DNA of 64,000 nt, taken from the IMG/VR virus record IMGVR_UViG_2913147268_000005; one strand, 5' to 3'. Positions 18,001 through 21,000 of the stretch are shown piece by piece. Source of the stretch: a virus (taxonomy: Duplodnaviria > Heunggongvirae > Uroviricota > Caudoviricetes). The position numbers were made by a program. Every line of letters starts with the position of its first letter. The stretch's first letter is position 1.

Positions 18001-21000
18001 TCCTGTGTGGCCGCCAGACGGGCTTCTGCAGCAATCTGCATCTCCGTCCCGCGGGCTGCCGCCACAGCCTGCTGTGCACGGTACACGGCTGCCCTTGCCC
18101 GCGCCGTGGCAATCTGCGTCCCCCTGAGCTGTGCTTCCGCCAGTGCCACTTCATTACGTGCTGCCGTCACAAGTCCTGCCGTGGCAGACACCGCTCCGGA
18201 GGCCATATTGCCAAAGTACCGGGCAACCCCGACGGCAACCAGCGCCCCCGCGGCTGTTGCCACATTATCAATATTACCGGCAACACCGTTCAGCACGCCG
18301 GAGAGCGTTTTCGTCGCTCCGCTGGCTTCATTCGCGCCACCCACCCAGGCCATAAAGGCGTTTTCCACCTTTGTGATCCCGTCAGAGACCGTTTCCGGCA
18401 TGGCGGCATATTCATCACGCAATACCCCCAGCTGGCTGATTAACGCAGGAACGACTTTATCCGCCGTCAGTTTGCCGTCGTCCGCCATCGCCTTAAGGTC
18501 TTTACGGGCCACGCCCATACCCGCAGCCAGTGCACGTACGATCCGGTCTCCGCTTTCATTGACCGAATTAAATTCCTCACCGCGTAACACACCCTGTGCC
18601 AGCGCCTGGCTGAACTGGGTGATCACCGAGCCCGCCTCTGCCGTACTGGCACCGGAGATTTTCAGCCCCGTGGAAATGGCCTCCGTCACCTTCAGCACAT
18701 CATCAGCACTGTAACCATATTCACGCATTGAGGCTGCCGAGCGGGCAAACAGGGCCGCATTATCTGAAAATGCCGTGCCCGTCCGCTGGCTGATATCCAT
18801 CAGCACTTTCTGTGATGACGAAAATTCATCGGATGACTGCGACGCCTGTTTCAGTCGGGCATTCACGGAACTCCATTCATCGGCCAGAGAAATCAGGTGT
18901 CCGGTGGCAAAGGCACCTGCAAATGCCCCCGCCGTTCCGGCAGCTGAAGCGCGGATTTCCGTCAACTGGCTGTTCAGCTCAGCCAGGGCGCGTCGCTGCA
19001 CCCGGGCGACTGCGGCAGCCTGACGCCCGCCATTCTGCAGGGTCCGGTAATATTCACTGCCCATGCGGGAAGCCCGCTGGATCTCCGACTGGAATGACTG
19101 CGAATTTGCCGAAATTTTGATAATCAGTTCACGTAACGTCGCCATTCACCTTTCTCCGGGCGTAAAAAAACCGCCTCAGCGGTTCTCATCATTCATGACT
19201 GTGCTGCGAAGCTCAGCGCGTCTTCCAGCGCCGCAAACGGATCCACCTCCGGCTTATCCTCATCCTCGCCCCAGCAGAGCATGGCGTCCTTCAGTGCAAC
19301 ATTCATCCCCTGTGCCCCAAAAACCGCTTTCACGATCTGTGCATTACGGATATCCCCGCGCTCATCACCCAGCGGGGATACCCTGTCGAACTCCATCCAC
19401 ATCATCGCCTCGCTCACACTCAGGCTGTGCCGCAGTTCGGATAAGGTGCGCCCCAGACGGAGCGCAAGTCGCATCAGAAAGCGAATTTCCGGGCGGGCTA
19501 CTTTTTTCTGGCCGACTCTGCATCAGCGATCAGTTCCAGTGCCTGACGCAGCAACCGGGCATGTACCGGACCATAGACGGCCAGCACCTGCTCACGGTCG
19601 TCCGGAGCGAACACCCGCTGCAGATCCGTATCACACAGGACATCGCAGAACAGCGTCACATCCGCTTCTAGGTTACGGCGGGTTTTCGCCACCACCGACA
19701 GGGTATCGTCATCCTCTCCATCACCATTGAGCACTTCCTGCCACAGATACCAGGCCTCTGCCGAAGGCTCCCGCAGCACCACGCTGACATTACCCCATTC
19801 CGGCACCTTCACCGTTTTATGACGAAACCCTGACAGTCTGGCCAGCGCCAGCGTTTTCAGATCCTTTTTCATGATGACCCATCCCCTTATCCGGCGGCTG
19901 CGCTCACTGTCACGGTGCATTCAACAGACGTCACACTCTGTGCTTTCTCTGCCGAATCGGTCACCACGCAGGTATATTTCCCCGCATCAGCGGACTGCGC
20001 ACCTGGCTTACTGAAGGTGTCTGTCGTCTGCCCGTCAACCGGCTGACCATCCTTCTTCCAGGCGTATTTATACGGCGGCGTTCCCCCGTTGGCACTGACT
20101 GACATTGTCAGCAGCGCACCTGTATTCACGGTAAGTGTTTTATCCAGATTTTTCACAAACGCCAGCGGTACCACAAAGGACACCGGTTTGCCTTTCATAC
20201 GCAGTGAAAACGTTGCTGCCACCACGCCGTTGGTACCGGATGACCAGGTGTGCTGACGCACTTCCGCCAGGAACTTAAAGCCCTTACCGGACGGAAACAG
20301 CACCTTAAACGCATACAACGCGTCATTGTCATAGGCATCACGCAGGGCGTTCTGGGCCTGATTCAGATAAAAATTACCCGACATGGAAATCTCAGACGAC
20401 GCCCCCAGACCGTTGATGTTCTCCTGCTCGGTGGAGCAGAGCGTGGTCACATCAATATCCTGTTTCTGACCAGCGGTGAACTGGACTTCCTTGATGGTGC
20501 AGTCCAGGCGCAGATATTCCGCCTTATCCATAGTTTCAGCAGTCGCCGGGGCAGATGAAATCATCACCTGCGTCAGCTGTGAGCGTTCATACAAAGCAGA
20601 CATTCTGCCTCCTGATAATAAAAAACCCGCACGCGGCGGGGTATGGGTTTTGTAGAAAAAAAGAAAAAGTCACACCGTGACCTGAAACTCCAGGGTTGCA
20701 CGGTAACAGCGGTTTTCCGGAATATAGTCCTGCATTTCACTGACGGATCCCGGGGCCAGCAGCATTATGGCTTCACGGGCGTCCTGACGTATCTGACGCG
20801 CCTGCGTCACAGTCCCGGCATAAACGTCTATCTGCACCGACACTGAGGACTCCGCCTGCCCGCCCATCACGTCCGCAGACACCGATGAAATCAGGCTGAA
20901 AACCACCCACGGAAGCGCCACCGACGGCCTGCCATCCAGCAGGGGGACCACATACGGGTACACCTGCCCGCCGGCAAGATGCGCCAGATGAGGATACAAA

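What the first reader, a model, noticed from the sequence alone, without database searches (positions are those of the whole stretch)
19474..19520. Conserved G-T type -1 programmed frameshift site in the tail assembly chaperone
The G-like ORF ends ...GCC AGA AAA AAG TAG. The heptamer A AAA AAG is a classic slippery sequence, and a -1 slip reads on into the overlapping T-like ORF, reproducing the lambda G/G-T arrangement.
Basis: partly seen in the sequence, partly recalled or inferred. Interest (0 to 1): 0.45.

Follow-up and report, generated by a model that had tools for sequence, protein, structure and literature searches.

The report
Known phage tail-chaperone G/GT frameshift site
This is the ordinary, well-known ribosomal slip site that lets an E. 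coli prophage make a short and a long tail-assembly chaperone from one gene pair, and this exact sequence has already been shown to frameshift about 7% of the time.

Summary
On the minus strand a 124-aa HK97-type tail assembly chaperone gene (19872..19498) ends ...GCC AGA AAA AAG TAG. The heptamer A_AAA_AAG (19507..19501) is in the right phase. A -1 slip reads straight into a 102-codon lambda-T-family extension (19501..19193), giving a 226-aa G-T fusion. The pair lies between the major tail gene and the tape measure gene.

The heptamer alone means little: there are 27 copies in the window. The context is decisive. The fusion aligns end to end with the annotated HK97 -1 frameshift product. In 55 of the 57 other homologous loci from Enterobacterales genomes the core A_AAG sits at the same codon; the two exceptions carry one-base indels in the A-run. 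The -1 frame peptide is conserved from the slip site onward, before the ATG that RefSeq uses as the T start.

The 75 nt at 19527..19453 are identical to a cassette tested by Antonov et al. 2013 (PMC3711429, Table S2), which gave 7% ± 0.79 -1 frameshifting in an E. coli reporter.

I found no conserved downstream RNA structure and no upstream Shine-Dalgarno-like stimulator, as is reported for lambda.

Verdict: real, correctly interpreted, already known. Interest is low. The only practical point is that public annotation lists T as a separate 93-aa gene.

The parts
19498..19872 (-). G-like tail assembly chaperone ORF, 124 aa, including the TAG stop at 19500..19498
   Evidence: Translation. PF06222 Phage_TAC_1, E 1.7e-61, over the full profile 1-124. 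PHROG 344 tail assembly chaperone. RefSeq WP_000710949.1 'phage tail assembly chaperone'.
19501..19507 (-). Slippery heptamer A_AAA_AAG in zero-frame phase (AGA AAA AAG), immediately followed by the TAG stop
   Evidence: The core A_AAG is kept at this codon in all 55 dereplicated homologous loci, and the full heptamer in 39 of them.
19193..19501 (-). -1 frame T extension read after the slip: GTA GCC CGC CCG ... to TGA 19195..19193. It has 102 codons and begins VARPEIRFLMRLALRLGRT.
   Evidence: PF06223 Phage_tail_T, E 6.7e-18, in the fusion. PHROG 14766 (224-position fusion profile) matched over positions 2-224, E 1.9e-85.
19523..19525 (-). TGA stop in the -1 frame. It limits any productive shift to the last 7 codons of G.
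19472..19474 (-). Internal ATG (Met of the conserved F-L-M motif) that RefSeq and GenBank use as the start of a separate 93-aa 'tail assembly protein T' CDS
   Evidence: There is no Shine-Dalgarno motif upstream in the sequence. The Met codon is absent at this position in 6 homologous loci.
19453..19527 (-). 75-nt stretch identical to the published reporter cassette (Antonov et al. 2013, Table S2, Phage_TAC cluster, fs-gene 15618692; 7% ± 0.79)
19887..20603 (-). Major tail (tube) protein gene upstream of G, with an in-frame C-terminal Ig-like domain
   Evidence: PHROG 158 major tail protein, E 1.7e-116; Pfam I-set/Ig_3 at residues ~149-227.
15903..19145 (-). Tape measure protein gene (1080 aa) downstream of T
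   Evidence: PF06120, PF20155 and PF09718; PHROG 339.

Best explanation
[quoted passage not shown] Most ribosomes translate the 124-aa chaperone G and stop at TAG 19500..19498. A few per cent slip back one base on A_AAA_AAG, with tRNA-Lys re-pairing from AAG to AAA. They then read GTA GCC CGC CCG... and produce a 226-aa G-T fusion. By analogy with lambda, the shared G part binds the tape measure protein and the T part recruits the major tail protein. The fixed G:GT ratio set by slip efficiency is what tail assembly needs. Shown here: the anatomy, the family membership, the conservation of the site, and identity to a cassette with a measured 7% efficiency. Inferred: the exact tRNA events (tandem A/P-site slip, or P-site slip with the stop codon in the A site) and the role in tail assembly. 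The slip appears to rely on the heptamer and the adjacent stop only, without a conserved RNA structure or Shine-Dalgarno-like stimulator.
For: Sequence, phase and frames. G is PF06222 over its full length. The fusion adds PF06223 and matches a 224-position PHROG fusion profile over positions 2-224. Gene order is major tail - G - T - tape measure. HK97 carries the homologous pair with a joined CDS noted 'translated due to a -1 frameshift'. The window fusion aligns over 225 residues at 61% identity, E 5e-101, with no gap at the junction. 58 loci were fetched from one-genome-per-species contigs, and 56 have the site intact. With the window that makes 57: 41 have A_AAA_AAG and the rest have G_GAA_AAG, A_GCA_AAG, G_GCA_AAG or A_GAA_AAG. 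All keep A_AAG at the same codon, while the G stop lies 0 to 8 codons downstream. The slip-site Lys codon is AAG in 55 of 55 dereplicated loci, against 30% AAG (153 of 504) for other Lys codons in the same genes. The -1 peptide V-x-x-P-...-F-L-M is conserved from the slip site. Its Pro codon varies at the third base (CCC/CCT/CCG/CCA), which indicates protein-level selection upstream of the annotated ATG. An identical 75-nt cassette gave 7% ± 0.79 frameshifting in E. coli. General mechanism and role of G/GT: review PMC5009743.
Against: There is no direct evidence from this genome that the fusion is made or used. The reporter assay measures protein and cannot separate ribosomal slippage from transcriptional slippage. 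T has an in-frame ATG at 19474 that public annotation treats as an independent start. In this window the tail module is cut inside gene L at 15300/15301, so this prophage copy may not build tails at all. My site-finding script required an in-frame A_AAG near the G stop, so the 55/55 count is partly by construction. However, the independent protein alignment also shows the terminal Lys as invariant.
Confidence: 0.93

Rival explanations
1. T is made as an independent 93-aa protein from ATG 19474, as RefSeq and GenBank annotate it, possibly by re-initiation after termination at TAG 19500..19498. On this view the heptamer is incidental.
For: The ATG lies 24 nt after the G stop and is annotated as a CDS start in E. 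coli chromosomes and in phages JLK-2012 and vB_EcoS-569R3.
Against: There is no Shine-Dalgarno motif before the ATG. The Met is part of a conserved F-L-M motif and is Leu in 6 homologous loci. The peptide between the slip site and the ATG is conserved at the protein level. HK97 is annotated with the frameshift. The cassette yields a GST-MBP fusion at 7%, and this cluster is not among those the paper lists as also showing internal initiation.
Confidence: 0.04
2. The shifted product comes mainly from transcriptional slippage. RNA polymerase would add an extra A in the A6 run, so a normal ribosome reads through into T.
For: Poly-A runs support transcriptional realignment, for example Thermus dnaX on a stretch of 9 As. 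The A-run is indel-prone in relatives: L049 has one A fewer and L054 has a 9-A run. The reporter cannot tell the two mechanisms apart.
Against: The run here is only six A. The paper gives n > 7 as the A-run length involved in transcriptional realignment. Sixteen homologous loci keep the site with only A3-A4 (GCA AAG, GAA AAG), which cannot support polymerase slippage but keeps the tRNA-Lys A_AAG slip. A_AAA_AAG in dnaX was shown to work by ribosomal frameshifting.
Confidence: 0.05
3. The heptamer is a chance occurrence at the end of a Lys-rich C-terminus and has no function in this defective prophage copy.
For: AAAAAAG is common in the window, with 27 copies. The tail module is truncated in this window.
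Against: Phase, position and codon choice are conserved across many genera, and the identical sequence has measured activity. Truncation of the prophage would make the site idle here. It would not make it a chance feature.
Confidence: 0.01

Closest known systems
Antonov et al. 2013 (NAR 41:6514, PMC3711429) 'Phage_TAC' programmed-frameshift cluster, cassette fs-gene 15618692
   Same: The printed 75-nt insert is identical to window 19527..19453 (-). It has the same heptamer, stop and downstream sequence. It gave 7% ± 0.79 -1 frameshifting in an E. coli GST-MBP reporter.
   Different: Nothing in the sequence differs. The published test used a reporter fragment, not the phage genes in a lysogen.
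Phage HK97 gp13 and the gp13-14 fusion (NC_002167, joined CDS 'translated due to a -1 frameshift')
   Same: Same Pfam families (PF06222 plus PF06223) and the same gene order. The fusion proteins are 61% identical and colinear through the junction.
   Different: The HK97 heptamer is G_GAA_AAG and its G stop lies 5 codons further on. HK97 has a moron gene (gp15) between T and the tape measure gene. The window has only a hairpin with a T-run there.
Phage lambda G / G-T (Levin, Hendrix & Casjens 1993; Xu, Hendrix & Duda 2004, 2013, 2014; as summarised in PMC5009743)
   Same: Same arrangement and gene position, a low-efficiency -1 slip ending on AAG, and a T domain of the same Pfam family, PF06223.
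   Different: Lambda G is PF06894, not PF06222, and shows no BLASTP similarity to the window G. The lambda heptamer is G_GGA_AAG with the stop 6 codons downstream.
E. coli dnaX gamma/tau frameshift
   Same: Identical heptamer A_AAA_AAG, decoded by the same tRNA-Lys.
   Different: dnaX has an upstream Shine-Dalgarno-like stimulator and a downstream hairpin, and shifts at about 50%. Here there is no Shine-Dalgarno-like motif in the 22 nt upstream and no significant or conserved downstream structure, and efficiency is about 7%.

Membership tests
Tail assembly chaperone G/GT -1 programmed frameshift (class of Xu, Hendrix & Duda 2004) | Two overlapping ORFs located between the major tail protein gene and the tape measure protein gene | tested here: met
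   Major tail gene 20603..19887, G 19872..19498, T frame 19522..19193, tape measure gene 19145..15903, all on the minus strand.
Tail assembly chaperone G/GT -1 programmed frameshift (class of Xu, Hendrix & Duda 2004) | [quoted passage not shown] | tested here: met
   A_AAA_AAG at 19507..19501 in phase. The -1 frame is open only from 19522.
Tail assembly chaperone G/GT -1 programmed frameshift (class of Xu, Hendrix & Duda 2004) | The site and the frame relation are conserved among homologues although flanking sequence diverges | tested here: met
   56 of 58 homologous loci keep A_AAG at the same codon with T in the -1 frame. The two exceptions have one-base indels in the A-run.
Tail assembly chaperone G/GT -1 programmed frameshift (class of Xu, Hendrix & Duda 2004) | The downstream ORF lacks its own conserved start and ribosome-binding site and is translated only as an extension | tested here: inconclusive
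   The window has an ATG at 19474 but no Shine-Dalgarno motif. The Met is missing in 6 loci, and the peptide upstream of it is conserved. Independent initiation has not been excluded experimentally here.
Tail assembly chaperone G/GT -1 programmed frameshift (class of Xu, Hendrix & Duda 2004) | A frameshifted fusion protein is actually produced at low efficiency | tested here: met
   Tested here: exact identity of window 19527..19453 to the published cassette. Taken from the paper: 7% ± 0.79 in an E. coli reporter.
Tail assembly chaperone G/GT -1 programmed frameshift (class of Xu, Hendrix & Duda 2004) | G and GT are both required, in a balanced ratio, for tail assembly and are absent from virions | not testable with these tools
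   Known for lambda (PMC5009743). This needs genetics on this phage.
Pfam PF06222 Phage_TAC_1 (HK97 gp13-like chaperone) | Score above the gathering threshold over the full-length profile | tested here: met
   206 bits against a 25-bit cut-off, profile positions 1-124 of 124. HK97 gp13 scores 203 bits.
Pfam PF06223 Phage_tail_T (lambda T-like) | Score above the gathering threshold in the -1 frame extension | tested here: met
   65.3 bits against a 25.9-bit cut-off, residues 152-222 of the fusion. Lambda T scores 54.1 bits.
Pfam PF06894 Phage_TAC_2 (lambda G) | Sequence membership of the G part | tested here: not met
   The window G hits only PF06222. BLASTP against lambda G gives no meaningful alignment. 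Lambda G itself is PF06894.
dnaX-type stimulated frameshift cassette | Upstream Shine-Dalgarno-like stimulator and downstream stem-loop at a short spacing | tested here: not met
   No GGAG, GAGG or AGGA in the 22 nt upstream in the window, and such motifs are at variable positions in 23 of 55 loci. The downstream fold has z = -1.04. RNAalifold finds 0 conserved pairs in 25 sequences.

The most novel reading that the evidence does not exclude
In this HK97-type chaperone family the essential event may be a single-tRNA slip of tRNA-Lys on A_AAG while a slowly decoded stop codon occupies the A site (a 'shifty stop'), rather than classical tandem slippage. All ten loci whose P-site codon cannot re-pair (A_GCA_AAG, G_GCA_AAG, A_GAA_AAG) have the stop codon directly after AAG, against 27 of 47 others. 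In the window, too, the heptamer abuts TAG. If true, release-factor availability would set the G:GT ratio.
Probability: 0.25. Interest if true: 0.25.

Novelty: already known. Interest (0 to 1): 0.07.

Why it matters
It matters little as a discovery. The G/GT frameshift is a textbook feature of long-tailed phages, the HK97 homologue is annotated with it, and this very sequence has a published efficiency. The practical value is for annotation. RefSeq and several GenBank phage records list T as a free-standing 93-aa protein starting at an internal Met and do not join it to G. A similar stretch (at least 90% identical) occurs in 1,246 of 5,426 complete E. coli genomes. The real 226-aa product is therefore probably missing from many protein sets. 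This can mislead proteomics searches and screens that use phage core proteins.

Tried and rejected
1. Heptamer statistics alone: AAAAAAG occurs 27 times in the window, so they are not informative.

2. First genome-contig scan with the single G protein: no confirmed relative. The second scan, with an alignment of 24 homologues, gave 58 loci.

3. Downstream stimulatory RNA structure. The 101-nt fold is not better than shuffles (z = -1.04). RNAalifold on 25 diverse homologues predicts no pairs. The local 8-bp hairpin UGCGCUCC-GUCU-GGGGCGCA starts 34 nt past the heptamer, encodes the conserved ALRLGR motif, and is lost where Arg is Lys. I rejected it as a stimulator.

4. Upstream Shine-Dalgarno-like stimulator: absent in the window and not positionally conserved elsewhere.

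5. Direct BLASTP of the window G and T against lambda G and T: no alignment. The relationship of T is visible only through the Pfam profile.

6. The Xu et al. 2004 paper (PMID 15469818) is not in the held library. Its content is cited only via PMC5009743, PMC10274946 and PMC3711429.

7. A literature search for 'A AAA AAG' with tail assembly found nothing. Searching 'AAAAAAG' inside words found the decisive paper.

8. Structure prediction, fold search and the large representative-protein search were not run. Family membership was already unambiguous.

Full report
**Observation**

The genes at this locus are on the minus strand. [quoted passage not shown].

- The upstream ORF runs from ATG 19872 to the TAG stop at 19500..19498 and encodes 124 aa ending ...ADAESARKK.
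- The heptamer A_AAA_AAG occupies 19507..19501. It is phased X_XXY_YYZ with that ORF (AGA | AAA | AAG).
- The -1 frame has a TGA at 19525..19523, is open from 19522, and continues to TGA 19195..19193.
- A ribosome that slips back one base on the heptamer reads AAA AAA GTA GCC CGC CCG GAA ATT CGC TTT CTG ATG... This adds 102 residues (VARPEIRFLMRLALRLGRT...) and gives a 226-aa product.

The heptamer alone is not rare: the window has 27 copies against about 11 expected. The case rests on context.

**What the two ORFs are**

- The 124-aa protein matches Pfam PF06222 (Phage_TAC_1, tail assembly chaperone) over the whole profile, E 1.7e-61.
- The conceptual fusion additionally matches PF06223 (Phage_tail_T), E 6.7e-18.
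- The fusion also matches a 224-position PHROG profile (phrog_14766), evidently built from such fusions, over positions 2-224, E 1.9e-85.
- Upstream lies the major tail protein gene (20603..19887). Downstream lies a 1080-aa tape measure gene (19145..15903), followed by a lambda-M-like gene.
- The surrounding genes are the usual HK97-like head-tail connector set.

The 841 bp around the site are 100% identical in many E. coli chromosomes. A similar stretch is present in 1,246 of 5,426 complete genomes and is about 99% identical in long-tailed Stx phages (2851, YYZ-2008, JLK-2012, BP-4795). This is a lambdoid or HK97-like E. coli prophage.

**Relation to characterised phages**

- HK97 (NC_002167) carries the homologous pair and annotates both gp13 and a joined CDS 'translated due to a -1 frameshift'. 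The window fusion aligns with the HK97 fusion over 225 residues at 61% identity, E 5e-101. There is no gap at the junction: ARKK-VARPEIRFLM against AREK-VSTPGVKFLM.
- The HK97 slip site is G_GAA_AAG, with the G stop five codons later.
- Lambda uses G_GGA_AAG.
- Lambda T and the window T both belong to PF06223. Lambda G is PF06894, a different family from the window G.

**Comparative test**

An alignment of 24 G homologues was used to fetch 58 loci from one-genome-per-species contigs. The genera include Enterobacter, Kosakonia, Klebsiella, Raoultella, Morganella, Proteus, Providencia, Xenorhabdus, Pectobacterium, Brenneria, Serratia, Yersinia, Pantoea and Erwinia.

- In 56 of the 58 loci, as in the window, an in-frame A_AAG sits at the homologous final Lys of G, and the -1 frame continues for 73-105 codons (92 or more in all but one locus) of T-like sequence.
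- The heptamer is A_AAA_AAG in 41 of these 57 (the window included). The rest are G_GAA_AAG (6), A_GCA_AAG (5), G_GCA_AAG (3) and A_GAA_AAG (2).
- The slip site is fixed relative to T: the next -1 codon is Val, or in a few loci Ala, with a conserved Pro three codons later. The G stop lies 0, 1, 4, 5 or 8 codons downstream. The conserved element is therefore the slip site, not the stop.
- The slip-site Lys is AAG in 55 of 55 dereplicated loci. Other Lys codons in the same genes are AAG only 30% of the time (153 of 504). My script required an A_AAG, so this count is partly by construction. The independent protein alignment also shows this Lys as invariant.
- The Pro codon between the slip site and the annotated ATG varies at its third base (CCC, CCT, CCG, CCA). 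The 'start' Met is Leu in six loci. That stretch is therefore translated in the -1 frame.
- The two exceptions are informative. L049 has one A fewer, which puts T in the +1 frame. L054, from a symbiont with a disrupted G, has a 9-A run that fuses G and T in frame.

**Stimulators**

- The 101 nt downstream fold no better than shuffled sequence (z = -1.04).
- RNAalifold finds no conserved pair in 25 diverse homologues.
- The window has no GGAG, GAGG or AGGA in the 22 nt upstream. Such motifs occur at variable positions in only 23 of 55 loci.

The site looks like the low-efficiency lambda type rather than the dnaX type. The stop codon directly after the heptamer, seen in 37 of 57 loci, may contribute.

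**Experimental evidence already published**

Antonov et al. 2013 (PMC3711429) describe a 'phage tail assembly chaperone' cluster of 41 predicted frameshift genes similar to an HK97 protein. They tested two cassettes between GST and MBP in E. coli and found 6% and 7% frameshifting.

[quoted passage not shown] This string matches window 19527..19453 (-) exactly. The cluster is not among those the paper lists as also showing internal initiation.

The general biology comes from the review PMC5009743. G and GT bind the tape measure protein, T recruits the major tail protein, the ratio is about 30:1 in lambda, and the frameshift is widely conserved in long-tailed phages.

**Mechanism and rivals**

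The best explanation is -1 ribosomal slippage of tRNA-Lys on A_AAA_AAG, giving a few per cent GT (confidence 0.93).

- Independent initiation of T at ATG 19474, as annotated, is unlikely as the main route.
- Transcriptional slippage on an A6 run is unlikely to dominate, because 16 homologous loci keep the site with only three or four A's. The reporter does not exclude it.
- A sub-question remains open: tandem slippage, or a P-site slip next to the stop. All ten loci with a non-re-pairing P-site codon have the stop immediately after AAG (Fisher p = 0.01, but the loci are not phylogenetically independent).

**Caveat for this window**

At 15300/15301 the lambdoid tail module is cut inside gene L and joined, with only 2 shared bases, to the middle of a gene of a P2-like prophage. 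In reference genomes that prophage lies about 500 kb away. No complete E. coli genome in the collection spans this junction. If the junction is real, this prophage copy lacks its distal tail genes and the frameshift site is idle here. If it is an assembly chimera, nothing changes.

**Verdict**

The finding is real, correctly interpreted, and already known. It has low interest apart from the annotation gap: T is listed as a separate 93-aa CDS in RefSeq and in several phage records.

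Noticed in passing
window 15300-15301 (context 14055-15910): Abrupt junction with only 2 shared bases (CC). 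Window positions from at least ~10,000 up to 15301 are colinear with a P2-like prophage of E. coli 4/1-1 (around 964 kb) and end inside its 625-aa DUF6645 gene. From 15300 the window is colinear with the lambdoid prophage (1.44-1.474 Mb) and begins inside minor tail gene L. ORFs 14055..15518 (+) and 15569..15234 (-) are chimeras. No complete E. coli genome of 5,426 covers at least 80% of window:14700-15900. This is either a real illegitimate rearrangement (the join order fits a tandem-duplication or circle junction) or an assembly chimera.
   Followed up: partly
window 19193-19474 (-): RefSeq (WP_001234278.1 'phage tail assembly protein T') and GenBank phage records annotate T as a separate 93-aa CDS from an internal Met. 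They carry no joined G-T feature, unlike HK97 NC_002167. The 226-aa product is therefore probably missing from many protein sets.
   Followed up: yes
L021, L023, L025, L029, L051, L038, L039, L048, L007, L046 (slip sites near locus positions 1860-1895): Homologues whose heptamer has a P-site codon that cannot re-pair (A_GCA_AAG, G_GCA_AAG, A_GAA_AAG) all have the G stop codon directly after AAG: 10 of 10 against 27 of 47 others. This hints at single-tRNA slippage aided by the stop. The loci are not phylogenetically independent.
   Followed up: partly
L049 about 1864-1872; L054 about 1856-1866: The A-run is indel-prone. Serratia sp. L9 has one A fewer, which puts T in the +1 frame. Candidatus Symbiopectobacterium endolongispinus has a 9-A run that fuses G and T in frame, and its G is disrupted upstream. 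Metagenomic proteins P0001 and P0002 are also in-frame G-T fusions caused by small indels next to the site.
   Followed up: partly
window 22137-24722 (-): The 861-aa portal protein carries about four tandem copies of a ~54-aa unit (…DGRDYDPDVLQKAVNDAVANIPQPADGKSLTPDDVRPMLEQMVKEAVSHIPVPR…) in its C-terminal half. RefSeq calls it simply 'phage portal protein'.
   Followed up: no
window 19887-20603 (-): The major tail protein has a C-terminal Ig-like (I-set/Ig_3) domain encoded in frame, residues ~149-227. One GenBank record mislabels the gene 'fibritin'.
   Followed up: no
window 19164-19184 (-) and 20626-20640 (-): A hairpin with a T-run (AACCGC-TGAG-GCGGTT-TTTTT) lies between the T stop and the tape measure start, seen by eye. 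A terminator-like site lies just upstream of the major tail gene. These positions correspond roughly to 'putative terminators' annotated around the tail genes of HK97, where a moron gene also sits between T and the tape measure gene.
   Followed up: no
window 24934-26871 (-): A 645-aa ORF annotated 'phage major capsid protein' is unusually long. It lies between the terminase and portal genes, so the portal gene follows the capsid gene, which is an atypical order.
   Followed up: no
whole window: AAAAAAG is over-represented: 27 copies against 10.7 ± 3.5 in dinucleotide-preserving shuffles, and no shuffle reached 27. None of the other copies was examined for phase or overlapping frames.
   Followed up: no
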